Origin: the human T2T-CHM13v2.0 reference genome, Homo sapiens
Assembly (NCBI RefSeq): GCF_009914755.1
Contig: NC_060936.1
DNA length: 64,000 nt
Reading direction: 5' to 3' (one strand)
Position numbers and translations under genes: made by a program. This document shows, one piece after another, positions 20,295 to 56,800 of this stretch; positions within the stretch are counted from its first letter, which is position 1, and the number at the start of each line of letters is the position of its first letter. The notes beneath the pieces are model-generated. The model saw nothing but the letters and a program-made list of their open reading frames with translations. It made no database searches and had not been told where the DNA came from.

Positions 20295-20605
<311 letters not shown>

Positions 20606-20662: not shown

Positions 20663-20664
<2 letters not shown>

Positions 20665-20722: not shown

Positions 20723-20723
<1 letters not shown>

Positions 20724-20739
20724 TATATATGGGTGTACA

Positions 20740-23341
<2,602 letters not shown>

Positions 23342-23990: not shown

Positions 23991-24087
23991 GTTCTCATCA
24001 CCTAAACGTATGCCTTTTAGTTCATATTTTATTTGTTTAATCTTTGGGTAAGACTCTTGTTGCTGTTTTCTTTCTTTTTAAGATGAA

Positions 24088-25041: not shown

Positions 25042-25043
<2 letters not shown>

Positions 25044-25072
<29 letters not shown>
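25044..25072. repeat. (CA)n microsatellite
   Basis: Directly visible. Confidence 0.9.
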
Positions 25073-25077
<5 letters not shown>

Positions 25078-26737: not shown

Positions 26738-27053
<316 letters not shown>

Positions 27054-27689: not shown

Positions 27690-28136
<447 letters not shown>

Positions 28137-29234
28137 CTACATCTACACATCAGTGATCCTGCATCTTTTCCTCTCACATCTTCTCTCCACCATACTGTTT
28201 GGCCACAAGTTACCCCTCCCCTGCAGAAAAGACAGTGGCTTTCGTTAGCCCAGCACTTTAGCTGTCTCAGAGACCCAAAGGAGTAGCTGGGCCTTCCGGT
28301 CAGGGTAAGGAACAAGAACTGCTAAGTGAGCTGTTCAAGGCTCTCTCAGGTGGGAAGGGCTGGGGGAAAGAACACAGTCTCCATGGCTGGGTATGACTCA
28401 GGGAAGAATGGCCGTTGGGGAGCCATGTTCCACATCTCCACCTTACAGTGAATCAGGAATACAGAAAATCAAGGTTGAGGCTATACACAGTAACACTCAC
28501 TAGTGGCACAGCTTTGTCCACATCAGCAAGTCTAAGTGCAGGCTCTGCTGTTGCTAACTGCCTGACCTCGGGCAAGCCTTCTATCTCTTAGGATATTTAA
28601 AAAACCAATGGGTTGGACGAGTCTCAGTGAGCCTTCCAGCACCAACCTTCCACACCTATAGATTTTATTTTGTTACCAAACTAAACTCTCTTCACACATA
28701 TTCATTCTTCATGTCAACTTGTAGTACGACTATCTGCTCACAATTTTAAAAATCAGAAGAAACACCAACAACAGCATAACCTTCAACCCAACTTCTCCAG
28801 ATGAGTATCATACCACCTCAGGTGAACAAAGGCGGGCTAAGATTATTATTCTATCAAAGCAGCTTCATGTAAAGAAAGAGAATGGAATGTGTACATTTTT
28901 CAGGGCAGTGCACATTCATCTGTGATTGAAGAATGATTCAGATCTGTTTCAAGCAATAATTTAATTTTTCACAGTGAAAATTATCATTTCCCCAATTTTC
29001 AGTTTTTTTAATTCAACTTATTTTTTGAATAGGTGATACATGTACATGGCTTTAAATTCACAAGCTACAAAATAATATAAAGTTTAAAAGTAAGTTTTCC
29101 TGTCACTCCTGCCCCTATGCAATTCAGTTGCTCTCCTCAGTGACAACCACAGTTACCACATGCTCGGTACATACAATAAGTGCAAGTGCATGTGTATGCA
29201 GGTGAGCAAGCATGTGTGCACACACACACTATTC

Positions 29235-29544
<310 letters not shown>

Positions 29545-29887
29545 TAAATGGTATTATCCTAAAAACATTATTTTCCATCTTGCTTTTTTCCCTCCTAATA
29601 TTATATCGCAGACATTACTTCATAAAGAGTAGCCTCAGACTTTTCAAAGACTGTATCATATTCTGTTGTATAGCTATTCTATTTAACCAGTGCCTGAAAA
29701 CTAATGAATATTTACGATGTTTTTGGTATTTTGCTCTTTTAAACAATGTTACCATGAGTACCTTTGTACACAGGGCATTTTGCACAGGTGCAAGAATATC
29801 TGTAGGATAAATTCCTACATAGTCACTCTCTGCACAACCATGTATTCATAACTTAGATACAGCCAAACCACTTCCAGAGACACTAGA

Positions 29888-30080
29888 CTGGGGTTGCAAA
29901 CTATATCCCACAGGTCAAATCTAGTCCACGAGCTAAGGATATTTTTGTTTTTAAAGAGTTGTTTTAAAAAAAAGAAAAGAAGAAAAAGGAGAGGGAGAAG
30001 GAAGAACATGTGACAGAGACCTTATGAGGCCTTCAAATATTTACTATCTGGCCCTTTCAGAAAAACTTTCCTGAGCCCTA
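29888..30080. mobile_element. MER58A-like hAT MITE
   Basis: ggggttgcaaact...atatttactatctggccctttcagaaaaaactttcc. Confidence 0.65.
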
Positions 30081-30480
30081 CACCAATTTACAGCCCCATC
30101 AGCAATGTATAACAGTGAATGTTTTTCCACTATTTCCATTCTAATCTTTGTTCAAATTAAGATTTAAGGTAATGCTTCAAGTTTTGTTTCAGTTGAAGAA
30201 AATAAGGCACTCATAAAACACTTACATCATGGCACTATGATCTTTCCAGGCAAAAATATGGCTTGTTCTAGGACACAAACATAAAGCGACACTTGAACTT
30301 CTCGCCTCACATTCACAGGTGGTGAGAAAAGGTTAGAACCTCCAACTGTTAGAACCGGAAGGAACTTTAAAGGTTATCTGATGTAAGAGTTACAGATTCT
30401 GTGTACCATTAAAATTTCAAAACAAATTTAAAGGATTAAAACAATGTTGTCAATTTTTTATGTTGCCAATAAAGTCATTA

Positions 30481-30840
<360 letters not shown>

Positions 30841-31072
30841 TCATAAAGGAATTTAACATTAAAAGTAGGGCATTCCCAATATTAGAATAAAGGAGAGTCC
30901 ATTACATTAAATATACTTACCTTCACGAAAAGCCAAACACATCACCATTTTCCTTCTGCCTTTGCTTCACATTGAGGAAAACTCCATGTCAAACCCATGT
31001 GGAAACCAACTTCACTGTTTCCTAAACAATCAAAAGACCCTATACCCAAATGAATGCTCAAGATTCAATTCT

Positions 31073-31383
31073 GGGCTGGGCACAGTGGCTCATACCTGTA
31101 ATCCCAGCACTCTGAGAGGCCGAGGCGTGTGGATCGCACGAGGCCAGGAGTTCAAGACCAGCCTTGCCAACATGATGAAACTTTGTCTGTACTAAAAATA
31201 CAAAAATTAGCTGGGCTTGGTGGTGCATGCCTGTAATCCCAGCCACTCAGGAGGCTGAGGCAGGAGATTCACTTGACCTGGGAGGCAGAGGTTGCAGTGA
31301 ACCAAGATCACGCCACTGCACTCCAGCCTGGGCGACAGAGTAAGACCCAGCCTCAAAAAAAAAAAAAAAAAAAAAAAGAAAAA
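31073..31383 (+). mobile_element. AluS
   Basis: Dimer; TSD AAGATTCAATTCTG. Confidence 0.9.
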
Positions 31384-31874
31384 GATTCAATTCTGATGAC
31401 AATGAATTTATGGCAGACCTAGAACTAGAACCCAGGACCTATGTCTGCCAATCCCCCTAAATTTTCCCCTACACCACATTCTCCACATGTCCCAAAATCA
31501 CAAAACAAATGACCAGGATAACTGGTCCCACAGCACCCCAGCCAGTCTCTTCCTTCCTACATCACTGCTCTTCCCTCTCAAGTGTGATCGCTTATCTCTC
31601 AGCCAAAATGTGTTTTCAGTCCTCTTCGCTGGGAGGCAGGGGAGCAAAACAACAACAAAACTGGACATTTTCTCTCTTCTTAGTAGCTGGAGAATCCTAA
31701 ATTCATGCAGACTCAAATGGCAATCACCCATTCATTCTAAATGTGTTTTTCCCCCATCAATCCTTATAAATAGCCTCCACCTCACTCTCCTTTGCTGTGT
31801 AAGGTGGAGAGGGACTGGGGTCCCTGGAAACACATGCATGAGCTTCTATGGGCACTTAAGCATCAACCCAAGGG

Positions 31875-32742
31875 TCTTCCAGATGGTTGACAAGAGGCAT
31901 CTCCTACAGCTTCTTCCACAAGAAGAACCAAAATAGCGAGTAGATAGTCACACTTCAAATAGATCATCTAAGACAGACCACTGGAATTCAACAGAGAAAT
32001 GACAGGAAACATCTAAAGCAGGGAAGGAGACAGAAGCAAGGCAGCCTACTCTGCCAGGGTGGGCCGGCATCCAGGACAGGCTTCCCAATGGAGAGAAAGG
32101 GTAAGTGCCACATTCCCACCACGGACTCCTGCAATCTTAGCCACAAGAGAGCCCCTCCACTCTGGGGGGCCCAGAGACTAACCTAAGGCACTGCCTGGAG
32201 ACTGTGCAACCAGAGACATTGCTCCAGACGGGGAACTCATGCTGGGTCCCACAAACCCCAAGTCTTAAGCACCTACAGCACAGTGCCACTTTGAAAGCCC
32301 AGCTCCCACCAGACTGCAACCAGTCCCGGGCCCAACAGCCCCTGCATCTCCACATCCCCGGAGTCCCACTGACATTTCTCCCCCTCAGCCACCATTGCAG
32401 GGGCCAAGAAGGCAGCCACTGGAAACAACTCGACCCAGTTTTCACCCCCTGCAGAGAGGCAGCTGTGCATTTTCACATGCCCCAGGACAATTCCACTGAC
32501 CACAGCTAGTCATGCAGGTAGTTATGGGCCAAAGCTAGTGAAGTACACATCCCTCAGACCCCTGCCTATGGCTGCTCCCACTGAAAGCAACCCTGCCCTC
32601 CCCAGTAGCAGGGCCACAGCACACAGGCTGCTGCCTGCACCTGGCCATTTCCCCAGTGGCCTATAGGGATCACCCTACCCCTGCCTGGCTGTGGAGCCAG
32701 TGCCTACACACGCCACCAGGGGTGGGACAGAGGACAGCTTGA
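31875..32742 (+). mobile_element. Probable 5'UTR of an L1MA-type element
   Basis: Starts ccagatggttgacaagaggc...aagaagaaccaaaatagcgagtagat, resembling old L1 5' ends; GC-rich; abuts ORF2 sequence. Confidence 0.5.
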
Positions 32743-35490
<2,748 letters not shown>

Positions 35491-36984
35491 GAATTAGCTT
35501 CCCCTGAAATTAAGAGCCAAGGATACTTCAACGGGCTTGGATACAGAGCTACAGAAACACAGCATCTTTATCAGATCCAAGACCTGGCCTTCCTCTGCCC
35601 TCCCTGGTGCTCTTTCATCCAACATTTGGCTTTCTTCTGTGTGCATGGCACCATTCATTTGCTCCTGTGGCTGCTCATGTATCTGTCCTGACATAGGAGT
35701 CAGCCTCATTTTGTGCCATCTACCACGAGGGTGCAACCCTCCTTCTAGTACAGCTATGTCAGCCCCTGCCACTCAGACACCCAGCCCCTGCTCTGTGCTG
35801 CTAGGCACTATGGTTTCCAGCTAGCCCTGCAGCTAAAGCTAAATGATGCTCTGGACTGCAAAGCTTCCCATAGTCCTTCCAGCATCATAAGAAAAATCCA
35901 TTTGAGAGCAGTGAGCATTGACAATAGCTTTAATAAATAACAGTGTTGGCTCAATCTGCTCTATTTTCAATTAAGATTTTAGCTCTCACACAGCAGGGTT
36001 TTAATAGGACTCCTAAGCCTAGGAGTAGGTCATTGAGAATTTATAACACCTTTTTTAATGAACCAAATAGCAAGACTTTTGCCGCCATCCCAGGTTGCTT
36101 TTGTATTTGTTTTTAAGTCTTCTTCTGTCTCCCATTGCTCCAAAACATAGTTGAGGACATTTTCCTCTCATGAAACTATGTTACTCCTTCCCCACTAGTA
36201 ATTACTACCTCAGTTTCTTATTCCCTTACAAAGCTTTTTAATAGGACTAGTAATCCAAGGGAGAAACTAATTAGTAGATGGAATTTTTCCTTGTAATATG
36301 CTGTGGTCAAAAACATGCAAATTCTCACCAGGATCCCAAGAAATGAAACACATATCCCAAGAAGACTCAATATAGGAAAGGGGAGATGTGATCTCTCTGC
36401 CAATACTTCATGTTTCCCTCAAGATGACTTCTGCAGGTTTTGGCAGCAGGCTCCAGATAACATCACAACCCTATAAATCAGCTCCGCCGTGCAGATGTGA
36501 TTTAGTTAGTTATTCCCAGGAACAACAGGAGGTTGATTTGGACTTCATATTGGAGGTAAATGAAGGGGCCAGCCTTAGAGACTCTGACCTCTTTGTTGTG
36601 GGACAGAGGGACTATCTTGCTTACTACACCAAGGTATTAGCTTCCTGGCTTGAAGTTTGTATTCCAAGATGTGTCCCACTGAAGAGATGGGCAGGAGATG
36701 ACAGGACTCAAATACGCCTTCAGAGTCATGAAATGGTGGACATAGAAGAGGCCACAGGGGTTATCAAGGAAAACAGCGAGTTAAACGGACACATGAATAG
36801 AAGAATGGTGAATGAAATAGGACAGATATGTATGCATAAATTTTCCCAATGTCAAGGTTTGTGATATGCCACATGCTTGGGCCTTTTTTCAACCTTTCCA
36901 CTCATTCAACAAATAGTTATTGTGTGCCTAATGGGTACCAGGTTCCCAACAGTACTAAGCACTAGGGAAATGGTGGTGAACTAG

Positions 36985-37598
<614 letters not shown>

Positions 37599-37937
37599 AC
37601 ATTTCTTCACATCGCTTACAGTCTAGAGTTTACAGTTTAGTTAATAAACAAAATTACAACTGCTGCCCATTAAAAAAAACAAAACAACAACAACAACAAA
37701 AAAACGCATGTCAAATGGTTGGAGAAGGAAGAGTTTAATACATTTACTGATATTCTGAACAACTGAGAATTATCATAGATAGAATAAAAGGGTTCTCAAT
37801 TTATCAATAAGTAGACTTACCTTAACTACTTTACATATATATATGTAAACCAAAATAACAATTCTATTCATTCAGAAAATGTTTATTGAGGACCAGCTAT
37901 ATGCTAGTCACAAAGTAACTGACAAAAGTCCTGTCCT

Positions 37938-38241
37938 GGGCAGGGCACAGTGGCTCACGCCTGTAATCCCAGGACATTGGGAGGCTGAGGCAGGTGGATC
38001 ACTTGAGGTCAGGAGTTCGAGACCAGCCTGGCCAATATGGTGAAACCCCATCTCCATTAAAAATACAAAAATTACCCAGGCATGGTGGCACATGCCTGTA
38101 ATCCCAGCTATTTAGGAGGCTGGGGCAGGAGAATGGCATGAACCCAGGAGGCAGAGGTTGCAGTGAGCTGAGATCGCACCATGGCACTCTAGCCCAGGCA
38201 ACAGAGTGAGACTCTGTCTCAAGAAAAAAGAAAAAAAAAAA
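37938..38241 (+). mobile_element. AluS
   Basis: Dimer. Confidence 0.9.
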
Positions 38242-38967
38242 ATCCTGTCCTTAATGAGCTCATAATCTAAATAAAAAGATGAAAAAAACTAACAAAGAGC
38301 TTCAATATGGGTGACAAAGTCTTTAACGAAGGATGGAAAAATTCTGAGAGAATGGGGTGGGGCAGGTTATTACCTTATTAGGGCTGGGAGGAGGGCAGTA
38401 CTTGGGACTTGAAGCTGAGCCTTGAAGGGTGAGTGAGGTGATACCAGAAGGAAGGAGTTGAGGAGTCCCTTTCAGATGGAGGGAACAGCATGTACATTCC
38501 TAACTGAAAATAGTGCCTGCTGGGTGGGCAGGGAGTGCATCTGGGCAGCAGCCAAAGAGAAGCCTAGAAAGGGAGACAGAGGCCACACCCTGAAGGACTC
38601 TGTCGGCCCTGACAGTGTGGCTGGACTTGATCTTGTGGGCAATGGAAGGCCACCGCTGTGTCTTGACCGACAACATGATTAGATCTGCATGTCGGAAACG
38701 TGGTTCTGGCTGATGTAACATGTACTTCCTCCATCACTGAAGTTGTGGCTGCAGATGGAAAAACCAGAGGAAGGGAAATGGCCCAGGTGAGCAACGTTGG
38801 TGAGGTGGCAGAAGGAGAAGCATCTTCATTTTTTCTTTCAACTTTGATTCCAATGAAAGAAACATATCTAAAAAGAGTTTATCCATTATGACTCAGTCTG
38901 ATCTCTTCATAAACACTAAATCCTACAATCATATTACAAGAGGAATAAAACTGCTTGACCTAGTAAT

Positions 38968-39249
38968 TTCTTGTTTTGAGACAGGGTCTTGCTCTGTTGC
39001 CCAGGCTGGAGTGCAGTGACTCACTGCAGCCTCAACCTCGTGGGTTCAAGCCATTCTCCTACCTCAGCCTCCTGTGTAGCTGGGACTACAGGCACACAAG
39101 CCACCATACCTAGCTAACTTTTAAATTTTTTTGTAGAGACAAGGTCTCACTATTTTGCCGAGGCTGGTTTTGAACTCCTGTGCTCAAGTAATCTGCCCAC
39201 CTTGGCCTCCCAAAGTGCAGGATTACAAGCGTGAGCCACAGCCCCTGGC
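38968..39249 (-). mobile_element. AluJ
   Basis: Diverged reverse Alu. Confidence 0.85.
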
Positions 39250-39798
39250 TGATCTAGTGATTTCATTAAGGAATTCCCAAGAAAACAATCTAGATGAGAG
39301 AAAATAATTTTTCTCAAAGATGTTTTTAACTATGCTACTTAAAATAGCCAACAAATGAAAATAATCCAAACATCTAAAAATAAAGGATGGTTAAGCCAAA
39401 TGTCATCTATCAACATGACTAAATACTACATAAACATTAAATTAACTACAGCCATGCATGGGAATGTGTATGGGAGCAAAAGCAGACTCCAAAACATGAT
39501 ATGCACAACAGCTACAAGCTTAAGTACCTACTATGTGCCAGGCCCAATGCTAGGTTCTGGGGACACAGAAATACACCAGACAAGGTCCCTGTCTTCTGAA
39601 CTCACAGTTCACTAGGAAAGTTGGACTCACACAATTGTAACAAGAACAAAGCATGGCACAAAGAGAGCCCAGAGGAGGAGTTGCCCAACTTAGAGCCAAC
39701 ACACAAACACAACACAAATGTGAATGTTCAAGTCTGCAGCAGAATCACTCATCAATTATAAATTTTGATGACCCCAAACACATACTTGTTAATTTTGT

Positions 39799-40087
<289 letters not shown>

Positions 40088-40219
40088 ATTGTTAGATTAT
40101 CCCGGACATGTAAAACCTAAGATGAGGAACACTCAAATCCCCAAGAATATTGCATGGAGCCTTTTAAGAGTCCTTGGATGCTAGTTTGAGAAACAAAGAT
40201 CTAATAGCAGGAAGGTGCC

Positions 40220-40529
40220 TGTATTCGTCCATTTTCACACTGCTATAAAGATACTACCTGAGACTGGGTAATTTATAAACAAAAGAGGTTTAATTGACTC
40301 AGTTCTGCACGGCTGGGAAGGCCTCAGGAAACTTAGAATCATGGTGGAAGGCAAAGAGGAAACAAGGCACGTCTTACATGGCAGCAGGAGAGAGGTGGGG
40401 AACTGCCAAACACTTTTAAACCATCTGTTCTTGTGAGAACTCACTATCACAAGAACATCATGGGGAAAACCACTGGGGATTACAATTCGAGATGAGATTT
40501 GTGTGGGAACACAGCGCCAAACCAAATTA
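40220..40529 (-). mobile_element. MSTA/THE1-type MaLR LTR
   Basis: tgtattcgtccatttt...gagactgggtaatttata...acacagcgccaaacc. Confidence 0.8.
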
Positions 40530-40844
40530 GCTCCAGTGGACAGGAAGGAAGACAAAGGCCCAATAGCATCCGGCTCCTGATTAGGGTCAAGAGGGAGGAA
40601 GAGTCAGAGATGATGTCAAAGTTTGAAGCCTCTGCATCTGGAAAAATGGCAACAGGGCTCCCTGATATAAGAAACCTAAAAGAAAAGATCAGGTTTGAGA
40701 GTAAGAATAAGTTCTATTTTTCATATATTGAGTTTAAGAAACATTAGAGAGTAGGAAAGTGGTGGTATTCAGGAATTTGCTGAAAGTTATCTCTGGAGAC
40801 TTGGAGACACAGAGTAGAGACCCAGTATCCAAAGACATCTTCCA

Positions 40845-41247
<403 letters not shown>

Positions 41248-42322
41248 TCACATATTTGTTAGGCATCTACTTACTTTCAAAGGATTAGCTCCTTAAAATT
41301 AATAAAAACAGGGATATAGTATAAAGGATCAGAGTGAATACATTGATCTCGTATTTTTTCCATGGGAAAAATTCTCTACTTTTATAACGAATACAGCTTG
41401 AAAGATGATTTGATTTTAAAAAGGATTAATATTAAAGCTTATTTTTTCTACAGTGATTTATTTCATGATCATCTTCCTTCTAGCCTGTGAACTTCCAAGA
41501 TAAGGACTGTGGAACTATGCCTTATTTAAATTGCTAACAAGGTACCTGGAAAATAGTAAATACTTAATATTTGTGGTAGGAGTTTTGTAAACAGAAGAAT
41601 ACTTTGTTGTGGCTCTCAAACATCAGGAAGTTGCAGAGTACTATATGAGAGCATTTGTGTGTATGTACATACTACTGAATTCTACTGCGGTAAACAATCT
41701 GGGCTTCCAGTGTGGAGGTGGATGCTTTCATTCATTTGAAATCTACAATTACTCACATGTAAATTAGCAGCAATGCAGAAAATGTGAGAAATTCAGAATT
41801 AGTTTATCTTTTTAGAACTACCGAGATTCTTTTTGTGTTTGTGATCTATATGTGCCAACACTACAATTGTGTTATTTCCAGAAATAACTCAAAAAGACAT
41901 TTTCAATGATGAGTTTTGAGTAGCAAAACTGGAAAGGATATTGTCAATCTGTTGTACATTTATGATGTGCACAATCTAGACTTTCCTTCACAAATATGCT
42001 TCAATGCACAGAAGAAGGTGAAAACAACACCATAAATCTCAGGGCTGCAGAGGGAGAGCTGAAGGGGTAAAAAACGCAATTGGAGTTCATTCACCAGGTT
42101 GGACAATGAAACACCAGCTCTTGCTCTGCTTCTACTTGCTGAAACAGACGTCCCCAAGAAGATAAAGGGAAGATACTTTGTACCCTTCCTGACCCTCTTT
42201 CTTCCTATACCTTTATTGTTCATGAAGACAAATGGTATGAAATTTTAGTGAAAAAGTCCAAGCTTGGGTTGAGGGAAGTATTTGGTTTACTTAAATCCAT
42301 TGCTGAGGTTTATGGAACATAT

Positions 42323-42478
42323 CAGAGCTTCCCAAAGTCTAAAAAATTTAGACTTCTAGGTCCTATCATAGAAATGCTGATTCTGTAAGTCTGGGGTGAG
42401 CCTGGGAATTTGTATTTCCTGAAAGCCCCACTCACTTCCACAACTGATTCTAATAACCAGCCCAGTTTGTGAACCATG
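42323..42478. mobile_element. MER5A-like hAT MITE
   Basis: gctgattctgtaagtctggggtgagcctgggaatttgtattt...agtttgtgaacca. Confidence 0.55.
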
Positions 42479-43359
42479 AACGAGAGACTACACTCAGACT
42501 TGGCAAACATAAACTGTCTCACTTGATTCTGACAAATCAAGTGCATGTCAATCATCTCTATTTCACAGATGTGAAAAATAAGTCACAAGCCTGTATGCGT
42601 CAGTTTAGAGGTCATAGTGCAATGCTGCCTCCATTACACCATTATTTGAGCACCAAATTTCTGAGCATAGGTGAACTCTAACCTGATCTTGGGTCTCATC
42701 TCACAGACTATTCATGCAACCAACCAATAACTGTGGTGTGCCTGAACAGTTCTTGCACCTGTCCATAGTTCAGAGAGACCTCTGCATCCCAAATAACCAC
42801 TATTCACTACATAAGCACTAAAAAAATCCATTCAAATAGAACTTCAATAAATTTGTATTAGAGCACACAGCTTGTAATACTCAACTAATTTCATTTTATA
42901 ACCAGTAATGAGAAATTATCTGAAAATGAATAAAGAAAACAAATAGATCTTTCCAAACCCACTTCTGTAAAGGAAACAATATCCTTGCCCTTACTACTTC
43001 TGTAACATTCTGCTGAATGCTAATTGCTTTATTTTAATTTTAATGCAAAATTCTACATTTCTGATTAATGCAACTTACCAGGATCCCAAAGAATAGAAAT
43101 GAGATCCCATGTCATCAAGAAAGGGTGCCATGAGCATCAAGTAGAGGTGTGTGAGGGAGAGAGAGAGGAGGCAGCAAGTGATGAAGGCGGAAGACTGAAA
43201 TGTCCTGGTTTCAGTTGGGTTTCTGGTTTTCTATCCATGTCACTCTGCATTACCTCCTGAATAGGTAGACGGACTTTGGCAGAAAAGGATGGCTCACATA
43301 CTGGAAAACAATTGCACGCATACCTGGAATACATTAGAGGAATCTCTAATGCTTTAGGG

Positions 43360-43694
43360 CAAAGGGTGGCAAATTACAATCCACCGGCCAAATCCAGCCC
43401 ATGACCTGTTTTCGTATTATCCACAAGCTAAGGATGGTTTTTACATGTTTAAATGATTGAAAAAAAATCAGAATAATAGTATTTTATGACATGTGAAAAT
43501 GATATGAAATCCAGATTTCAGCATCCATAAGTAAAGTTTTATTGGAACACAACCACATTCATTCATTTCATGTGTTGTCTATGGTTGCTTTCACATTTTA
43601 AGGCAGAGTTAAGTCATTGCAATAAGAGACCCTATGGCCCACAAAGCCTATATTTCCTATCTGCCTCTTCACAGAAAAAGTTTGTGAACTCCCA
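43360..43694. mobile_element. MER58B hAT-Charlie element
   Basis: Degenerate TIRs; 8-bp TSD CTTTAGGG (43352-43359) / TTTTAGGG (43695-43702); aaagttttattggaacac core. Confidence 0.8.
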
Positions 43695-44125
43695 TTTTAG
43701 GGCAAAGGAGGGGTGTTAGGTTACTTCCTGAAAACTGACTCTGACCTAGCCTTAGTTTGCTGAATATGAAATAAAATACTGAACTTAGAATCATCTGAAA
43801 TACATTTCCTTTGATATTGACCTGTAAAGTATAACACAATCTAGTTATCCCTGCCTGAGTGTCCCAGTATTGAATTGAGACTATTCCTGTGGCTTCTTAG
43901 CCCAAAAACAGGGGCGGGGAAGGCCTTCTGCACATTCAACTCCATTACTGGAATGATGAACGCATAAAGAGAGGAGCCCAGCATACTAACCCAGCAGAGC
44001 CCTCTGCACAGGCTGCGTTTGAGCCTTCCTTTTAGCAAAGGGAATAGGTAGCTTTACCCTGTCAGCAACTATCTCGAGCACTGCTGTCATTTTCCCAGCA
44101 TTGATATTCAAAAATCAGAACTGCG

Positions 44126-44420
<295 letters not shown>

Positions 44421-46487
44421 TCAGAACTGTGGCATGTAAAACATAATTCAGAGTTGAATAGCAGGAGCCGCTGTCCTCCCTTCCGCTGAAGGCAGGAGGG
44501 AAGCTTGTCAGAGTCCAGACAGTTCTGGTCTATTAGCAGCAGCCTAATTTTTGCCATCTCTGAAGGCAACACAAATTACAAAGCATTCGCTACTGTTGTA
44601 CCAGTCAACTAATTCAATTGTCAGAACATTTCAAACCCCATAATTTGGATGGGAAAGAGAGGGAGAGCCTTGCTCTTATGAATTGACTGTTGGACTATTC
44701 CATGTCACAGCTTGCTTGGGGGTGAGAATAAGAAAATATTCTCTATCAGGAAATTAACATTTGTAAGTACCCTGGAAAGCTAAATAATAAGCATAATGGT
44801 TTAGAATGAAAGTAACCAAAGCGGTTCATTATTAACATTGCAAGTAAACACTTTAATTTGTGGCTTTGCTACACACATGGATTGTTGGGTCAACTGTTAG
44901 AGTATTTTCACTCATCTTTCAAACTACACATAATTCAGTCCTCTTTGCCAGTGTTTTTACCTAAACCCTCTGTGAATGACACTTTCTAGTTTCATGATAT
45001 AACTAGTCCTTAGATTCCAAGGTAATAAAGGCGCCCTTCTACTCAAAAACTTCATGGGCTTATTTCCCTCTTGCAAACTTAAGTATGCTTTAATGAGCCA
45101 TTACACTCATTTGAATTCCAGCTCTGCGAGGGACTAGCTGGATGTGTACGGATCCAAAACCTCATTTCCCTGAGCCCCACTCTCCACCTGAGAAAATGAG
45201 ATTAATGCCACTACTTCAAGTGGTGGTTTTTGACTCAGTAAATTTACTTTAAAAACCATTGAATTATACATTTAAAACAGGTTAGTCTTACAATATATGA
45301 ATCATTCCTCAAGAAAGTTATTAAAATTTTAATTTGAAGAACTGCTCAAGACCAGCCTGAGTAACATAGCAAGACCCCATCTCTAAAGAAAAAAAAAATT
45401 TTAATTGTACTTAAAAGAAGGCCGGGCATGGTGGCTCACACCTGTAATCTCAGCCCTTTAAGAAGCTGAGGCAGGAAGATCACTAGAGGCCAGGAGTTCC
45501 AGACCAGCCTGGGCAACAAAAGAAGACTCCCAACTCTACAAAAAATAAAAATTAATAATGTGATTAAAAGTAAAAATAAAAAGAGGCAGCCATGAACAAT
45601 AAACTATCAGTGAATAAAGCAAGAGAGGACTGTCTGCAGAATAAAGAGTGCAATTGTAAGATAAAGGAAAACGTGCTGTTTGAGCAGAAGAGACCAGGAG
45701 AAGGTCAGAGTAGCTAGATCATGCTTGAGGAGAAAAGATGGGACTTACAAAGAATGTGTTCAGATGCCATGTCCTGTTTAAAATTAAATTCCCCTGACAC
45801 CGCAACACCTCTCTCCTGTCTGGAAAAGTTAATTACCTTTTTTTCTAGGCTGTATTTTAGATATGTTTTTGCTAATGCAGTCATCACACTGCATGGTAAC
45901 TATTTGTTTAAAAGTCTGATCCTCAGTAAACTAAGTTCTTACGGCTCAGGGGCCATGTGTTTTGGCAGCCCTAGTCCATAACTCAGCCCAAGAATGTGAG
46001 ATAAATGAATGAATAATTTTGTTGCTTACTGCAAAAAGGAAAAAGACGGTTTTGAAGAGTCAGTGAAATATACATATGTATATGCAAAACGTGTGTATGT
46101 ATTAGCACAATGCCTTGCACATAGCGATCATTAAGTGATTTTTTTATTATTACTAGTAAAACATGCCAAGAACTGCACTACAGTTCAAGTCAATTTTGAA
46201 GCAAGTCTGGTCTAACAACAACAACAACAAAATGTTCGAACGCATGGAAAATAAGTAGACCTAAATTTAGATGATCCCCTGCCCTATTACTAAGGTTTAA
46301 AGGCCTAGATATGGGCCAGACTTCAAAAAGCCTCACAGAACCATCTACAATTTGAGATCAGAATCCTCCACATTCACTGTTAGCAGCAATTCTACTCTCA
46401 CTAAACCTTGTGCTTGCAGGCTTGTCGCCATTTGAGTAGCAGTTGATGGGCTTTCTGAGGATTCGTTCTTCAAGATTTTGGTCTGAA

Positions 46488-47458
<971 letters not shown>

Positions 47459-48187
47459 AAGGCTTTTATGAATCCCTCAGACTAGGTTAGGAACACCCAC
47501 TACAGTCCCCCAGTAACTGATCCTTCCTTTGCAACCATATACGCCACAATTCATGGTACTGCTTAACTGTCTTCTCAGAGCCTGCAAAGTCTGCAAGATC
47601 AGAGCCATGCAGAGCTTGCTCACCCACAGTGGATTCCTAGCACACAGAAGGAAGTCAATGTTAAAATATGTGTTTGAGGAGTGTCACCACATTACATTTA
47701 GTCTACATGCCAACACCTATGAAACAGCTTCAGTTCTTTCCTTCAGCTTGAAGATATGCACAATTCTAAACTCAGAAAGTTACATATTATCTGCAGTATT
47801 CATATTTTATTCTCCTGATGCTTTGGTGAATGCTGTCTCTCCCACCAGAGCAGTTGATCAAAAGAAGCAAGAGGTGGCAAGCCTCGAAACTAACCAGCTT
47901 GATTTTTGAATCTTTTTTTTAAGCCCCATGTATTTTTCCACAGTGTCTCACCTCAGTTACAAGGGAGGCACGATGCCCGAAATCTTGTCAGAATTAAAAT
48001 TATTAAAGTAGAAAGGCTTTTGGCAAAAGAATTTAAAGTTCCTATTTTGTGTGTATGCTGGGATTTTCAGCCGAAATCACAGCTGGGTGTACTCAGCCAC
48101 TGCCAGGGACAGAGGCTGTGTGTAAGTTTACCAGCAGTTTATCTAGAGCAGAAGCTCTCAATTTTAAACTCCCAACCTTCCATCCCA

Positions 48188-48221
<34 letters not shown>

Positions 48222-48231
48222 ATAAATATAA

Positions 48232-48460
48232 GAGCACAGACTCTGGCGCCAGAATGCCTCATTTAAAATCCCTGCTACATCATTTATTGGCCATGGTATG
48301 TTGGGAAAATTACTTAGCATTCAGCATCTAGCTTCCTCACTTGAAAATGGGAATAAAACAGCACCTATTGCATAGGTTTGTCGCGAGGATTAGATGAGTT
48401 AATTACATGAAAGGCGCTTAGAGTAAGGGCTGAGTAAATATTAGCTATCCTTATTATTAA
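48232..48460 (+). mobile_element. MIR
   Basis: ttcctcacttgaaaatggg...gaggattagatgagttaat...aaatattagcta. Confidence 0.7.
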
Positions 48461-49449
48461 ACACAGCTGGGGCATAGGAATACATGTGGAGGAGAAGGGA
48501 TGTGAAACAGAACAGAGAAGACAGCAAAAGTAATCTGCTGTGTAATGATGAGAATGGAGCACTTTCCACAAATTATCACAGACCTCAGGAAAACCTTTCA
48601 GTGCAGGTTAACCCGTCCAAGCCACATAGCCAGTAAATAGCCGTGCTGGACTTGAACCCAAACAGTTTGTCTCCAGAGATCCCATCCTGAACCACCAAGA
48701 AACACTGTCTCCCATGATCACACTTTCCCCTTTAGGGAAAGGAATTCCTGGGTTATGAAGTGAAGCAAAAGGACGTGAGGAATGAAAAGAAAGAATGGAT
48801 AAACAAGAGAAGGCCAGATTCATCTGTTTTTTCCATTTATAAGAGGTAAAATGACAGGTTTCCCTTTATCATCCCTTCACAGTCATGAAAGAGCCCGCTG
48901 TCTCTGCAGACACTTGGCTTTGATTTCAGTAGGCCAAGTTGAAATCGAAACCACTGTTAAAGAATTCAAAAGATTGACAGATCCTTTTCAACCCAGCAAG
49001 ATCCAAATGTGAAATAGAAATGATGGACATGAAGTACAAAGGGTAAGCAGGAGAACAGTGGATGGGGTCATTAGGGACACCGGAATCTCACCTGTGTTTA
49101 GAGTGGCAAGACTAGCAGAGGTGCTCTAGAGTCAGAAAGACAAAGGATTCAAATCCTAGTTTGGTTCTGTATTACCAGAAAAATGACTTAACCTCTCCAA
49201 GGATCATTTCTTTCATCTGTAAAATGGGGATAAGAACATCTGCCTCTCCATGGATAAACCACTTTGATACAGTTTCCAAGAAACTGGGAGACAGGCACTC
49301 ACGCTGGTAGATGTGTAAACTGGTTCAATCTCTATGGATGCAGTCTGGTAATACTGCTCTTTTTTCAAACTTGACAAACTTATACAGCGCTTAAAATGTG
49401 CCAGGCACTACACCAGGCACTTTACAAATAGTATTTGATTCTTGAGGCA

Positions 49450-49908
49450 CGTTGTAAAAATGGTGGCAATGATTCCCTTCACCGTATCCCTGCATCCCTG
49501 ACCTTGGGGAGTCTCCTCTTACACAGATTCTGAGCTTGACTCTTGCTTTGGTCAATGGAACAGCAGCAAATGTGACACATGCAGAGGCTTGACAAGTGCT
49601 TGAGCTCCGCCCTCCTGGGCTACTCTATGGAACCCTGAGACCACCATGTGAAGTAGCTAGGCTACTGGAGCAGGAGAGATTGCATGCTGTCCCAAATGAG
49701 TCCCCGATGACCAACACAGCTGTCAAGCACCAGATATGTGAGTGAGGTCATCCTAGACTGCCCAGCCTCCAGCAGACCCACAAGCTGACCACAGAAGCAG
49801 AACCAGAAGAGCCACTCAACCAACCCACAGATTTGTGAGCCAAGTAAAACGGTTATTTTTTTAAGCCATGATGATTGGGGGTGATTTGTTGTACAACATA
49901 AACTGAGA
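49450..49908 (+). mobile_element. MLT1H-like MaLR LTR
   Basis: tgtaaaaatggtggcaat...ttgctttggtcaatggaac...ttaagccatgatgattggggg. Confidence 0.6.
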
Positions 49909-50244
49909 GAATCCTCATAACAATCCTATTAGGTAGCTACCATTATTATCCCTATTTTGCAAATAAAGCAACTGAGGCAAAGAGGGGTTAAGTGACTTGC
50001 ACGACATATAAATGGCAGAGCCAAGACTCAACTCCAAGCAATCTGTCTACAGGTCTGTGCTCCTAACTCCTACACTATGTTGCTTTACCTACTAAAAATA
50101 CAAGTATTCACATCACTTGACCCAGAAATTCCACTGCTATTTATCATACAAATACGCTTGCACATATGCAAAATCATGAATATATAAGATTATTCACTGC
50201 ATCATTGTTGATAATAGCAAAATACCAGAAAAAAAATTCTAGTG

Positions 50245-52527
<2,283 letters not shown>

Positions 52528-52561
52528 CATATTCACATTTACAGCTATAAAGAGAACTTGG

Positions 52562-52852
52562 GGCTGGGCGCAGTGGCACCACACCTGTAATCCTAGCACT
52601 TGGAGAGGCCGATATGGGAGGATTCCTTGAGCTAAGGAGAGTTCAAGACCAATCTGGGCAACAGAGTGAGACCCCTATCTCTACAAATAAAAAAAATTAG
52701 CCGGGTGTGATGGCACGTGCCTGTAGTACCAGCTACTCCACAGGCAGAGGTGGAAGGATCACTTGAGCACAGAAAGTTGGGGCTGCAGTGAGGTAGGATT
52801 GCGCCACTGCACTTCAGCCTGGGAAACAGAGCAAGACTCTGTCTCAAAAAAA

Positions 52853-52892
<40 letters not shown>

Positions 52893-52893
52893 T
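52562..52893 (+). mobile_element. AluJ with A and (TA)n tail
   Basis: Dimer. Confidence 0.85.
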
Positions 52894-53675
52894 AAAGAGA
52901 ACTTCATAAATCTATAAATACCAATCTTGTATGAGAGAAAAATGCGTGGTGAAGAAGAGTATACTTATATGCTACCATTTGTGCTTTTAAAAATGAAAAG
53001 CATGAATATATAACTGCTTATATATGCATAGATTATTTCTAGAGGGACAGAAGAGATGAGTTAACAGCAATTGCTTCTAGGAAAGGGAACTAGCTGTCTG
53101 GGCAACAGAATAGGAAGGCTTATTTTCATTGTAAGCTTTTGATAGCTTTTAAATTTTATACTATGTAAATGTATCACCTATTAATTTTTAACTTAAAAGG
53201 TTGTTATGAAAATGAAGGAAGCCAGTAGATGCGTGGCACAAAGAAAATAATCAATAAATAGTAGCTACCAGCCTGGACAACATAGTGAGATCTCATCTCT
53301 ACAGGAAATTAAAAAATGAGGCAGGAGGATCGCTTAAGCCCAGGAAGTAGAGGCTGCAGTGAGCCGTGATGGTGCCACCGTCCTGCCACCTGGGTGACAG
53401 AGCAAAAGTCTGCCTCAAAAAAAAAAAAAAAAAAAAAAAAGTAGCTACCATTATAATTATTCTCCCACAACTGCTTTCTAACTTTTTCTAACACAAATAA
53501 TTTTTTAAAGCAACCAATCCTCTGTAACTCCTGGCTTGCATGGAAAGAGTTCATTTTGGATTCAAAAATAATGAAGGAAATAGGAAGGAGCCATGTGAAG
53601 ACGTGAAAGAAGACCCAACCATGGGGTTCTCTGGTGTTCACAGCCCTGGACAGCATGGTATGCACAACATTAGCC

Positions 53676-54008
53676 GTTTGTCAGAGTCCATTTGGGCTGC
53701 TACAATCAAATCCCATAGACTGGGTGACTTATAAACAACAAAAATGCATTTCTCACAGTTCAGGAGGCTGGAAAGTCCAAGATCACAGCCCCAGCAGATT
53801 CAGCGTCTGGTGAGGGCCCAAGTTCTGGTTCAGAGATAGTGTCTTCTCACATCATGGAAGGGACAAGGAAGCTCTCTGAGGCCTCCTTTATAAGGTTCTG
53901 CCCTTGTAACCTGATCACCTCCCAAAGACCCACCTCTTAATACCATCACCTTGAGGGTTAGGATTTCAACATATGAACTGCGGGGACAACAAACATTCAG
54001 ACCACAGC
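53676..54008 (-). mobile_element. MLT1A/MST-type MaLR LTR
   Basis: agtccatttgggctgcta...ggaaagtccaagatca...aaacattcagaccacagc. Confidence 0.7.
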
Positions 54009-55254
54009 TTCTCTCTTCAGAGCAACCCAAATACTGGGCATCTTCTGTGCTCCTACTCTGTACATTCCCTACACACCTTCTCTTTCATTCAAGGACACCA
54101 AAGGAAAGTAATTACTTTTGATTCTAATAGTGTGTCTGCACACTCTCTCTCTGCAGTTACTGATCTGCCACAGTTGAAGGGCTGCCACATGCATCTGCCA
54201 AACTGCCAAATTATATGCTTCTCCAGAACCAGACAGGGTCTGGGGCAGAAACAAAAAGTTTGTAGGCAACAGAGTGTAATGTCAAGAGCCAGGGCTTTGG
54301 AGTCCAGCAAACCTGGGCACAAATCCTGCTCTATTTTCCTCATAGCACTCATCACTATCTGAAACTACATTATTTGTACCTTTGTTTACTACTTTATTAT
54401 CTGATTTCTCAGTTTGAATGCGGCCTCCAAGAGAACAAGGCTTTTGTATGTCATGTTCCTCACAGTATTCCTAGAGCTCAGAACAGCGCCTGCACATAGT
54501 AGGTGCTTAATACACGTCTTATGGAGGTGGGGGCTGAGTATTTAAAATGCAGATTGCCAAGCTCCAGTTTCAGAGATTCTAACTCATTAGGTTTGAAACA
54601 AAGCCTAGGAATCTGCATTTGCAGCAAGCATCCACCTCTTTCATCCTAAGGCAGGTAGTAGGCAGATCACATGTTAAGATACTCTGGTCAATGCCCTCCA
54701 TCTCCAAATCGTGATTCTCCCTCTAACACGCATTTCTACGGATCCCATCCAGGCTCTTTTCTTTAATTACCCTGAGGCACTGAGGGTAAAAGGAGGTTGC
54801 TGACCCCTGAATTTGGAGTTCAAACAAGTAACCTCACCACGGCCAGTTTCCATTTCTGCTGCATGCCAAACTAGCTGGCCAGCCTGGCTGGAATCCTGTT
54901 CTCCCCAGAAACACCTGAGCAGGTCTGGACTAGCTCCAAAAGTATAAGCCAGGTAAATTTCCGTGTCAGCTCATTGAGAGACTTTCCAGGGGCAGCTGGG
55001 GCCAATTCACATTTGCTCTATACTCCCTCCAAAGACACCCCCTTCAACACACACACACAGAACACTTAATTCTGGTACCACCAGCAAAAAGAGGCCCGAG
55101 TTCCCTTGGGAGCAGCCCAGCCGCTGAGAGGCGGAAATCTCTGAAAGGGCCACTCAGATGACCAAAGCAATAGGCGCCTACGTACCTTACAACAAGCCAA
55201 CCTCAAGTTCCAACCTAGAGAAATGCATGGACTCTGGTGGGAGAGTCTTATTCC

Positions 55255-55305
55255 GTTTTTGTTTTCTTCTTTTGTTTTGTTTTGTTTTGGTTTGGTTTGG
55301 TTTTC
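55255..55305. repeat. (TTTTG)n/(TTTGG)n simple repeat
   Basis: Directly visible. Confidence 0.85.
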
Positions 55306-55719
55306 TTCCATTTCTTCTCAGCCTTGTCTCTTCAGAAAATACCCCTCCACCCCTTCCTTGGCGCGTAAACTGTCTTCAGGGTGGCCTTAGGAGTTCTGGG
55401 ACAATGTGGAGGGTACCCAATAGGATTTCCTTAAGTTTCCTCTACTGCTTTTCCACACATATTAATGCTGAGATCCTGTATTTGATTAAAGCACCTTCCA
55501 TTTCCAAAGTTAAAATACAAACGGGTCTGGTAACTTACAAAGTCGCCAGCATCTTCGTGTCAATTAACTTCCCCAGACAAGTAAGAACGAGCTGCACTAG
55601 GGCCTGCGCTCTCTCCGGGGCTAACAACAAGCAGCACCAGTCCCCCAAGCTGTCCCTGGAGGTGGAAGAGCCACTGCAGCTGAGCCTGTTTATTTTTCGT
55701 TTTTCCACAGGCAGCCTTG

Positions 55720-56800
55720 GCTGGAGGGTGGGGGTGAGCGCGGGCTCCCTGGCACCTGCCGGTAAAGCAGCAGCCGCAGCCCCCGAGGGCGCCCCAGGCC
55801 AGGAGCTGCGCGCCGTCGGCGGGCCGTGCCTGGAGGAGGCTCGCGCCTTCCAAATGCCGGAGTGCAGGCATCCTTCCTCTCCCCAACCCCAGCCCCGGCC
55901 TCGACCTGTCGCCCACCTGGCCCGGACCTGGGGCTGGCTCCGTCTCTGGGGTGTGCGCCAAGGGAGCCCCACCGACGCCCAGCAGAGCTGCCCGGGCTCC
56001 CAAAGAAGGACCGGGGCTTTGGGCAGAATTCTGGCAGCCAGGCGGGCGTCAGGGGAGCCGGAGAAGGGGCTCGCCAGCAGGCGTGGGGCGGAGTGCCGGG
56101 CGCAGCCCACCTCGCAAGCGCGGGCCCAGGGCTCCGACGTGCCAGCGCAGCCCCGAAGAGTGCGGGCCCGGGGTCCCCGCGGCGCCCCTTCCCCTCCTCA
56201 GTCCCCCGGGGGCGACCGCGCTCCCCGCCGAGGTCCGTCCCCGCCGCACCCTCACTATTCCCGCTGGGAGGACCCCGGCGCACGCCCCCGCCCCCGCACC
56301 CCGGGGCGACGGCGCACTCACCCTCCGCATGGTGTCTGGGCCGTCCGGGCGGGGCTCGGCGACTTGGGCGCGAGAAGGGCTGGGCCGGCGGCGACGCTCG
56401 GCCGGCCGGGAGCTCCGCGCTGCCCCCTCCTGCACACGCCTGCGCCGCGGCCGCCAAGCCGGCGGGGGCGGGGCGGGGTAGCGCTGGCCGCGGGGTCCCC
56501 GGGGCTCTCCCGGGCTGCGGCGGAGGCGCGGAGCCGGCCAAGGGCGCACTGAGCTCGCGGAGCTCCGGGGCCCCGGGGCCTTTCTGCCGCCGTCGCAGCG
56601 TCCCCGCCTCCTCGGGCCGCTTCGCCCCTCTCCTCTTCCTCGAGTTCTGGCCCCACCAGGAGCGGAGCGAGTCTCCGATGCCTGCCCCGCGGCCCCCAGA
56701 ACTGAGCTGGAGAAGCTTTGGGGTGAAAGCTGGGCCCACCCTACAGGGACCCCAAGTTTGCGGAGCAAGAGTGGATTGGCGGAGAGCGCAGATGGCAATT
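55720..56800. promoter_or_regulatory. CpG island, probable promoter oriented on the minus strand
   Basis: Very GC- and CpG-dense non-repeat DNA; tandem GC boxes GGGGCGGGGCGGGG at ~56463-56478; CCAAT on minus at 56775-56779. Confidence 0.88.
56322..56330 (-). CDS. Candidate coding part of a first exon (Met-Arg-Arg, phase-0 donor); possible distal first exon of TMCC3
   Basis: Minus strand CCAGACACC ATG CGG AGG|GTGAGT; -3 A Kozak; donor at 56321-56316; no upstream minus-strand ATG until 56840. Confidence 0.5.

What the first reader, a model, noticed from the sequence alone, without database searches (positions are those of the whole stretch)
56316..56800. CpG island with a 3-codon first exon (MRR): candidate distal promoter and N-terminus for TMCC3
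Seen: on the minus strand the island has a CCAAT box (56779-56775), tandem GC boxes (~56478-56463), an ATG-free leader, then CACC-ATG-CGG-AGG directly followed by a consensus donor GTGAGT (56321-56316). This is the first ATG for any start inside the island and it exits in phase 0. Recalled, not verified: the next minus-strand gene downstream of MIR492 is TMCC3; its annotated first exon ends on a codon boundary (...HHRCKSR|VERHDMNTLS...); and mouse Tmcc3 annotation extends much further 5' toward Ndufa12 than the human one. Inference: this is a distal first exon giving an MRR-VERHD... isoform. That would make 1-56321 part of one very large intron with KRT19P2/MIR492 lying antisense inside it.
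Basis: partly seen in the sequence, partly recalled or inferred. Interest (0 to 1): 0.8.

Follow-up and report, generated by a model that had tools for sequence, protein, structure and literature searches.

The report
Unannotated distal first exon of TMCC3
A CpG island 291 kb upstream of the main coding exon of the human gene TMCC3 carries a three-codon first exon (Met-Arg-Arg) that other mammals are annotated as using, and the protein it would give lacks the site through which 14-3-3 proteins restrain TMCC3.

Summary
The stretch 55941-56780 is the only CpG island in the window. On its minus strand lie a CCAAT box, GC boxes, an ATG-free leader, and ACC-ATG-CGG-AGG followed by GTGAGT.

I found TMCC3 in the same assembly. 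Its large exon 2 starts in phase 0 at VERHD, 291,005 nt downstream on the same strand. The canonical exon 1 ends ...HHRCKSR in phase 0.

Annotated TMCC3 isoforms of alpaca and two bats begin exactly MRR-VER(H/N)D. Birds and squamates have ...MLRK-VERHD.

In the 299 kb from exon 2 to the window end there are two CpG islands and one minus-strand ATG-Arg-Arg-GT site, which is this one. Only 4 of 5000 composition-matched shuffles of the island produce such a site, and none adds GTRAG.

The best reading is that this is the human copy of a conserved distal TMCC3 promoter and first exon, which the RefSeq table supplied with the finding does not list. Its product would lack residues 1-26, including phospho-Ser15, the published 14-3-3γ site.

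Not shown here are a human transcription start site, a human splice junction, or DNA-level orthology. It is an annotation gap of a familiar kind, with moderate interest.

The parts
55941..56780 (.). CpG island, the only one in the window. With looser edges the GC-rich block runs about 55600-56800.
   Evidence: 840 nt, GC 0.77, observed/expected 0.82, 101 CpGs. GC 0.66-0.84 over 55600-56800.
56775..56779 (-). CCAAT box (a candidate NF-Y site) at the upstream edge of the island
   Evidence: It is the only CCAAT on the minus strand of 55500-57000. Binding was not tested.
56461..56478 (-). Tandem GC boxes (Sp1/KLF-type, C-rich on this strand). Further GC-box cores start at 56353 (leader) and 56293 (intron).
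   Evidence: No TATA box in 55500-57000.
56331..56460 (-). Putative 5' untranslated leader of the distal first exon. Its 5' end (the transcription start) is not known and is placed here only as downstream of the GC boxes.
   Evidence: No ATG on the minus strand between 56840 and 56330. The position of the start site is inference.
56322..56330 (-). Coding part of the first exon: ATG CGG AGG = Met-Arg-Arg, with A at -3 (ACC ATG C), leaving the exon in phase 0
   Evidence: It is the only minus-strand ATG-Arg-Arg-GT site in 299,000 nt. The same N-terminus is annotated in P0006, P0010 and P0015.
56316..56321 (-). 5' splice site GTGAGT (AGG|GTGAGT, 8 of 9 matches to the consensus)
   Evidence: the only donor with 8 or more of 9 matches on either strand in 55500-57000.
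1..56315 (-). Window part of the proposed 291,005-nt intron (C12:94563317-94854321). It would contain MIR492 and KRT19P2 on the opposite strand and, beyond the window, the canonical TMCC3 exon 1 and its island.
   Evidence: Exon 2's first base is C12:94563316. The canonical exon 1 and its island are at C12:94630401-94631600. The gene table comes with the finding. That this stretch is an intron is inferred.

Best explanation
The island is the human copy of a conserved distal alternative promoter of TMCC3. It is TATA-less and of the CpG-island type, with a CCAAT box and GC boxes.

Transcription on the minus strand would start inside the island, most likely downstream of the GC boxes near 56400-56460. 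It would run through an ATG-free leader and reach ACC-ATG-CGG-AGG, and the exon would end at the strong donor GTGAGT. That donor would be spliced across about 291 kb, skipping the canonical first exon (which has no acceptor), to the phase-0 acceptor of exon 2.

The mRNA would encode a 454-residue TMCC3 in which Met-Arg-Arg replaces the 26 canonical N-terminal residues. Those 26 residues hold the R-T-Y-S15-D-P motif. Its phospho-Ser15 is needed for strong 14-3-3γ binding, and 14-3-3γ keeps TMCC3 away from ER three-way junctions. The distal-promoter isoform should therefore largely escape that brake.

Shown here: the sequence anatomy, the phases, the uniqueness of the site, and the existence of the same N-terminus in other mammals. 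Inferred: that the island fires in human cells, that the junction is made, and the 14-3-3 consequence.
For: 1. Anatomy. All elements were confirmed.

2. Target exon. TMCC3 exon 2 has a long pyrimidine tract and cag|G, and opens in phase 0 at VERHD. The canonical exon 1 also ends in phase 0, so the two first exons are interchangeable.

3. Orthologue annotation. Among 126 TMCC3-family cluster representatives retrieved (120 listed of 1153 hits, plus 6 new), 3 begin MRR directly before VER(H/N)D: P0006 (7 member sequences), P0010 (5) and P0015 (15). They are 91-95% identical to human exon 2 at full coverage. Six more end ...MLRK before the same junction: birds P0066 (587 members) and P0079, and squamates P0042, P0056, P0060 and P0065. 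A tiny Met-(Leu)-Arg-Arg/Lys first-exon ending therefore looks amniote-wide.

4. Uniqueness. In the 299,000 nt from exon 2 to the window end there are 2 CpG islands (the canonical exon-1 island and this one) and 1 minus-strand ATG-Arg-Arg-GT site, which is this one.

5. Chance. Such a site arises in 4 of 5000 island shuffles, and in 0 of 5000 with GTRAG. Shuffles of the 299 kb give means of 0.86 and 0.02.

6. Direction. The only donor with 8 or more of 9 consensus matches in the island region is on the minus strand, and no plus-strand donor with 7 or more matches lies between 55600 and 57000. Minus-strand GC skew is +0.32 and +0.19 in the 200 nt after the donor.

7. Function of the lost residues. 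This comes from passages of PMC9860497, a study that used mouse TMCC3. The motif is at residues 12-17, S15A reduces 14-3-3γ binding, and the other two predicted motifs are not involved. The human canonical exon 1 read from the genome carries the same motif.
Against: - No human transcript evidence could be consulted. The RefSeq table supplied with the finding has no gene over the island.
- That table labels 55817-56716 as silencer elements, so in the cells screened the fragment lowered reporter output.
- Only 3 of 126 representatives carry MRR. Clustering at 90% identity hides isoforms inside larger clusters, so this count says little either way.
- Orthology of those species' MRR exons to this island rests on the protein match and position, not on aligned DNA.
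- Counts of U1-like sites and poly(A) signals in the 1-4 kb on either side showed no clear asymmetry, and GC skew along the island is mixed.
- A minus-strand AATAAA lies at 55694, about 630 nt past the donor. It could end unspliced transcripts.
- A search with the 250-residue open frame across the island found only the window's own sequence, so it gave no conservation signal.
- I could not examine the roughly 90 kb between the window end and NDUFA12.
Confidence: 0.62

Rival explanations
1. This is an ancestral exon that human cells barely use. The island is orthologous to the distal TMCC3 first exon used in other mammals. In human it is held silent (for instance as a Polycomb-type repressed CpG island that behaves as a silencer) or fires only in a narrow developmental window. 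TMCC3 output would then come essentially from the canonical promoter.
For: The RefSeq table with the finding shows silencer elements across 55817-56716 and no transcript model. None of the six literature searches that bore on a second TMCC3 promoter or on this interval found one.
Against: The start codon, both Arg codons, the donor and a high CpG content (observed/expected 0.82) are all intact. A CpG island methylated in the germ line would be expected to decay; that is established knowledge and was not tested here. Reporter-screen silencing in a few cell lines does not exclude promoter use elsewhere.
Confidence: 0.22
2. This is the promoter of an unrelated transcript. The island would drive a non-coding or otherwise unannotated minus-strand RNA whose donor splices to local exons, and the Met-Arg-Arg reading would be coincidence.
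For: Most orphan CpG islands start some non-coding transcript (established knowledge). All six reading frames are open across the island, so open frames there mean little. One ATG-Arg-Arg-GT site per 299 kb is about what chance gives if the extended donor is ignored (mean 0.86).
Against: The site sits inside one of only two islands in 299 kb and carries a near-consensus donor. Chance for that is 0.02 per 299 kb and 0 of 5000 for the island. It reproduces exactly an N-terminus annotated for TMCC3 in three other mammals. No Rfam family matches 54500-58000.
Confidence: 0.1
3. This is a plus-strand or bidirectional promoter whose productive direction points towards LOC105369915 and NDUFA12.
For: CpG-island promoters are commonly divergent (established knowledge). 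Poly(A)-signal and loose U1-site counts are similar on both sides.
Against: No plus-strand donor with 7 or more of 9 consensus matches lies between 55600 and 57000. An Alu lies directly beyond the island on that side. The neighbouring annotated genes on that side are on the minus strand (table with the finding).
Confidence: 0.04

Closest known systems
TMCC3 isoforms beginning MRR-VER(H/N)D annotated in Vicugna pacos (isoform X2, P0015, 454 aa), Molossus nigricans (P0006, 461 aa) and Glossophaga mutica (P0010, 460 aa)
   Same: The three-residue N-terminus is identical and joins at the same exon-2 boundary. The human product would also be 454 residues (3 + 451). Identity to human exon 2 is 91-95%.
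   Different: Those are annotated models in other species. The human locus has no such model in the RefSeq table supplied. I could not see where their first exons lie in their genomes.
Bird and squamate TMCC3 isoforms ending ...MLRK before VERHD (P0066, P0079; P0042, P0056, P0060, P0065)
   Same: They use an alternative first exon whose coding part ends Met-x-Arg-basic in phase 0 at the same junction. Residues 34-57 of the Anolis protein give a weak collinear match to window 56416-56345 on the minus strand, ending 15 nt before the human ATG.
   Different: They have one more residue and Lys in place of Arg. In squamates the reading frame extends 46-65 residues upstream from another Met. The match to human is not significant on its own (50% over 24 residues, E 0.23), lies in a different frame, and is helped by shared GC-rich composition.
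Canonical human TMCC3 promoter and exon 1 (C12:94630401-94631600)
   Same: It is also a CpG island (1200 nt, GC 0.73, observed/expected 0.91). Its first exon ends in phase 0 before GTGAG and splices to the same exon 2.
   Different: It lies 223 kb nearer the gene body, and it encodes 26 residues including the 14-3-3 motif rather than 3.
Mouse Tmcc3 distal first exon and human TMCC3 isoform 2 (446 aa, starting at the internal Met of MNTLS). Both are recalled and come from no call.
   Same: Both are alternative 5' exons that remove the canonical N-terminus. By recollection, the mouse gene span of about 280 kb matches the human distance from this island to the gene's 3' end (about 303 kb).
   Different: Neither was verified here. 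Isoform 2 starts translation in exon 2, whereas this exon supplies its own ATG.

Membership tests
CpG-island promoter (TATA-less, Sp1/NF-Y type) | CpG island by composition (length over 500 nt, GC over 0.55, observed/expected over 0.65) | tested here: met
   840 nt, GC 0.77, observed/expected 0.82.
CpG-island promoter (TATA-less, Sp1/NF-Y type) | GC boxes and/or a CCAAT box, with no TATA box | tested here: met
   one CCAAT, three GC-box cores, no TATA in 55500-57000. These are motif matches only.
CpG-island promoter (TATA-less, Sp1/NF-Y type) | Mapped transcription start sites (capped 5' ends) and an unmethylated, H3K4me3-marked state | not testable with these tools
   No expression or chromatin data are held. 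The RefSeq table lists only silencer elements here.
Alternative first exon of TMCC3 (MRR isoform) | Same strand as the shared exon 2, and upstream of it | tested here: met
   exon 2 is at C12:94563316 on the minus strand, and the island donor is at C12:94854322 on the minus strand. Whether another minus-strand gene lies between 94631600 and 94698000 is not covered by the supplied table.
Alternative first exon of TMCC3 (MRR isoform) | A start codon in usable context, no upstream ATG, and an exon ending in the phase that exon 2 accepts | tested here: met
   A at -3, an ATG-free leader back to 56840, and phase 0 on both sides.
Alternative first exon of TMCC3 (MRR isoform) | A functional 5' splice site | tested here: inconclusive
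   It matches the consensus at 8 of 9 positions and is the only such site in the island. Use of the site was not observed.
Alternative first exon of TMCC3 (MRR isoform) | The same isoform present in other species | tested here: met
   3 of 126 representatives begin MRR, and 6 of 126 end ...MLRK at the junction.
Alternative first exon of TMCC3 (MRR isoform) | DNA-level orthology of this island to those species' first exons | not testable with these tools
   No other vertebrate genome is held. The island-frame protein search found only the window itself.
Alternative first exon of TMCC3 (MRR isoform) | A human spliced transcript joining 56322 to exon 2 | not testable with these tools
   No RNA data are held. 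The genome holds no retrocopy of the exon (1 match, itself). The TMCC retrocopy on C8 derives from TMCC1.

The most novel reading that the evidence does not exclude
Human TMCC3 is really a gene of about 300 kb with an ancient (amniote-wide) distal promoter that RefSeq misses. That promoter makes a 454-residue isoform without the phospho-Ser15 14-3-3γ switch. This form could not be pulled off ER three-way junctions, so promoter choice would set how strongly ER network shape is regulated in a tissue. MIR492, KRT19P2 and the disease-associated 'intergenic' markers between TMCC3 and MIR492 would then lie inside a TMCC3 intron.
Probability: 0.4. Interest if true: 0.55.

Novelty: new member of a known kind. 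Interest (0 to 1): 0.42.

Why it matters
If the exon is used, the human TMCC3 gene model is too short by about 223 kb at its 5' end. One of its protein forms is then missing from the reference used here.

That form would lack the only well-supported 14-3-3 binding site, which a published study showed to restrain TMCC3 at ER three-way junctions. Promoter choice would thereby become a plausible way to tune ER network shape between tissues.

It would also change how signals in this stretch are read. One example is the CpG cg12149513, listed as intergenic between TMCC3 and MIR492 and linked to colorectal-cancer risk (PMC11258330, table passage). Another is the reported effect of miR-492 on TMCC3 (PMC12533385, passage). 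Both would fall within a TMCC3 intron rather than in a gene desert.

The mechanism itself, an alternative CpG-island promoter with a tiny coding first exon, is ordinary.

Tried and rejected
- **Retrocopy test.** A processed pseudogene of TMCC3 could have preserved the 5' exon. The 199-nt putative exon matches only itself in the assembly. The intronless TMCC copy on C8 is 84% identical to the TMCC1 locus and 70% to TMCC3, so it is uninformative.
- **Conservation through stray genomic open frames.** The 250-residue frame across the island found only the window's own protein among 8000 scored candidates.
- **More MRR representatives.** A second search scored on residues 1-40 of P0006 returned 122 hits from 123 candidates and no further MRR N-terminus.
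- **Direction from U1-site and poly(A)-signal counts.** There was no clear asymmetry. GC skew was mixed and gave only weak support.
- **Squamate N-termini against the 299 kb.** The best hit outside simple repeats falls just upstream of the human ATG on the right strand. It has E 0.23 and other hits also land in the GC-rich islands, so it is kept as suggestive only.
- **Rfam on 54500-58000.** No family matched.
- **Literature.** Eight searches were run, six on a second TMCC3 promoter or this interval, one on 14-3-3 and one on mouse coordinates. None turned up a paper on a distal TMCC3 promoter or an MRR isoform. In the listed papers I saw only search listings and passages. The mouse-coordinate search led to a paper whose relevant part lies beyond the text held. 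A G-quadruplex paper on 'the TMCC3 promoter' (PMC8501965, passages) was not mapped to either island.
- **Interval from the window end to NDUFA12.** It could not be fetched, so other candidate sites there are not excluded.

Full report
**What is in the sequence**

- CCAAT at 56779-56775.
- A run of GC boxes around 56478-56461.
- No ATG from 56839 down to 56331.
- ACC-ATG-CGG-AGG, with the ATG at 56330-56328, followed at once by GTGAGT at 56321-56316.

The surrounding stretch 55941-56780 is a CpG island. It has GC 0.77, observed/expected 0.82 and 101 CpGs, and it is the only island in the 64-kb window. The GC-rich block extends to about 55600. There is no TATA box, and further GC-box cores start at 56353 and 56293.

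The donor matches MAG|GTRAGT at 8 of 9 positions. It is the only site that good on either strand between 55500 and 57000. The whole window has 19 such sites on the minus strand and 18 on the plus strand. All six frames are open across the island, so open frames there carry no weight. No Rfam family matches 54500-58000.

**Where TMCC3 is, and whether the phases fit**

The window's own assembly could be searched. Pfam PF10267 (the TMCC family domain) gave 20 matches at E ≤ 0.001. Three lie on the minus strand of the same contig at C12:94552256-94563196, and the window is C12:94798001-94862000.

The large exon there is preceded by a long pyrimidine tract and cag. It opens with the codons for V-E-R-H-D-M-N-T-L-S, and its first base is C12:94563316. 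The island's last exon base is C12:94854322, so the proposed intron is 291,005 nt.

I then fetched the intervening DNA and read it together with the window as 299,000 contiguous bases. The canonical first coding exon is at about C12:94631180-94631256. It reads M-P-G-S-D...R-T-Y-S-D-P...H-H-R-C-K-S-R, is followed by GTGAGC, and lies in its own CpG island (94630401-94631600). Both first exons end in phase 0 and exon 2 accepts phase 0.

**Does the predicted protein exist anywhere?**

I searched the large protein collection with the translation of human exon 2. This gave 1153 hits at E ≤ 1e-20 among 2757 candidates, of which 120 were listed. I searched again scoring only the first 40 residues of one hit, which gave 122 hits among 123 candidates and added six new proteins.

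I sorted all 126 retrieved representatives by what precedes the exon-2 junction:

| N-terminus before the junction | Representatives |
|---|---|
| Canonical N-terminus | 50 |
| Start at the internal Met of exon 2 | 25 |
| Other upstream sequence (includes read-through of the intron on short genomic contigs, and other alternative exons) | 32 |
| Start at the junction (partial) | 4 |
| Could not be classed | 6 |
| End ...MLRK | 6 |
| Begin exactly MRR | 3 |

The three MRR proteins are all annotated as TMCC3 isoforms:
- P0006, Molossus nigricans, 461 aa, 7 member sequences.
- P0010, Glossophaga mutica, 460 aa, 5 member sequences.
- P0015, Vicugna pacos isoform X2, 454 aa, 15 member sequences.

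The MLRK group comprises birds (P0066, which stands for 587 member sequences, and P0079) and squamates (P0042, P0056, P0060, P0065). In squamates the frame runs further upstream.

Because the collection is clustered at 90% identity, isoforms that differ only at the N-terminus are mostly hidden inside larger clusters. The count of 3 is a floor, and nothing can be said about primates or mouse from it.

**Is the human site the counterpart of that exon?**

DNA of other vertebrates is not available here, so this rests on position and probability.
- In the 299,000 bases from exon 2 to the window end, the minus strand has exactly one ATG-Arg-Arg-GT site. It is this one, and there are only two CpG islands.
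- Dinucleotide-preserving shuffles of the 299 kb give on average 0.86 such sites, but only 0.02 when the donor is extended to GTRAG.
- Shuffles of the island itself give the site in 4 of 5000 trials, and with GTRAG in 0 of 5000.

One bare site somewhere in the interval would be unremarkable. One with a near-consensus donor, inside one of two islands, at the first ATG of the island, is not.

A weak extra hint comes from tblastn of the squamate N-termini against the 299 kb. The best hit outside simple repeats aligns Anolis residues 34-57 to window 56416-56345 on the minus strand. It is 50% identical over 24 residues and ends 15 nt before the human ATG, in another frame. With E 0.23, and with other hits also drawn to the GC-rich islands, I treat this as suggestive only.

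**Direction of transcription**

The minus strand carries the only strong donor, and no plus-strand donor with 7 or more of 9 matches lies between 55600 and 57000. Minus-strand GC skew is +0.32 and +0.19 in the 200 nt after the donor, but it is mixed elsewhere in the island. Counts of loose U1-type sites and poly(A) signals over 1-4 kb on each side do not separate the strands. A minus-strand AATAAA at 55694 could end transcripts that fail to splice.

**What the isoform would do**

Passages of PMC9860497 (abstract and the sections on N-terminal binding, serine 15, discussion and plasmids) report work with mouse TMCC3.
- 14-3-3γ binds the N-terminal 89 residues.
- The best motif is at residues 12-17.
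- S15A strongly reduces binding, and Ser15 is phosphorylated.
- The two weaker predicted motifs (22-27 and 43-48) do not contribute.
- 14-3-3γ reduces TMCC3 at ER three-way junctions.

The human canonical exon 1 read from the genome carries the same R-T-Y-S-D-P at 12-17. Replacing residues 1-26 by Met-Arg-Arg removes it. The inference, which was not tested, is a TMCC3 form that escapes this negative control. The same would hold if translation began at the next in-frame Met, in exon 2.

**What argues against, and what could not be done**

The RefSeq table supplied with the finding shows no gene over the island and labels 55817-56716 as silencer elements. No expression data, chromatin data or other annotation set could be consulted.

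The literature searches were these.
- Six bore on a second TMCC3 promoter or on this interval.
- One was on 14-3-3.
- One was on mouse coordinates.

None found a paper on a distal TMCC3 promoter. I saw only listings and passages, and supplements were not opened.

Several other routes gave nothing.
- The assembly holds no retrocopy that could have preserved the exon.
- The island-frame protein search returned only the window itself.
- The interval between the window end and NDUFA12 was not examined.

**Verdict**

This is most likely the human copy of a conserved distal TMCC3 promoter and three-codon first exon, absent from the RefSeq set used.

Whether human cells use it, and how much, is open. 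I give the full reading 0.62, and a further 0.22 to the version in which the exon is orthologous but essentially silent in human.

It is a new member of a familiar kind (an alternative CpG-island promoter with a tiny coding first exon). It has a concrete, testable functional consequence and moderate interest.

Noticed in passing
window 56890-57190, minus-strand orientation: An Alu-like element lies directly upstream of the island and bounds it on that side. I recognised it by eye from the sequence, and the family name is recalled. The 80-residue frame at 56999-57241 has the typical Alu translation.
   Followed up: no
L004 (G000:C8:106321397-106325227): This is an intronless TMCC-family copy with 8 stop codons inside the main match. 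It is 84% identical over 932 nt to the TMCC1 locus on C3, so it is a TMCC1 processed pseudogene and not TMCC3.
   Followed up: partly
G000:C23:152433103-152524797, minus strand: Three near-identical copies about 37 kb apart match both ends of the TMCC domain: positions 4-82 at E 3e-17 and positions 304-397 at E 4.5e-7. This looks like a triplicated TMCC-related gene on that contig.
   Followed up: no
window 56345-56416, minus strand: The leader just upstream of the ATG, read in another frame, resembles residues 34-57 of the Anolis alternative N-terminus (50% over 24 residues, E 0.23). It may be a trace of an older, longer coding first exon.
   Followed up: partly
window 55694, minus strand: An AATAAA lies about 630 nt downstream of the donor. 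It is a possible end point for unspliced promoter-proximal transcripts.
   Followed up: no
interval between TMCC3 and MIR492 (outside and inside the window): Published 'intergenic' signals fall in what would be the long intron. One is cg12149513 with rs11108175, for colorectal-cancer risk (PMC11258330, table passage). A review states that miR-492 raises TMCC3, NDUFA12 and NR2C1 expression (PMC12533385, passage).
   Followed up: no
C12:94574194-94574334 (L011): A long GAA/GAG-type simple repeat, read as poly-Glu/Lys-Arg, lies in the TMCC3 intron between the canonical exon 1 and exon 2. It appeared only as a low-complexity tblastn hit.
   Followed up: no
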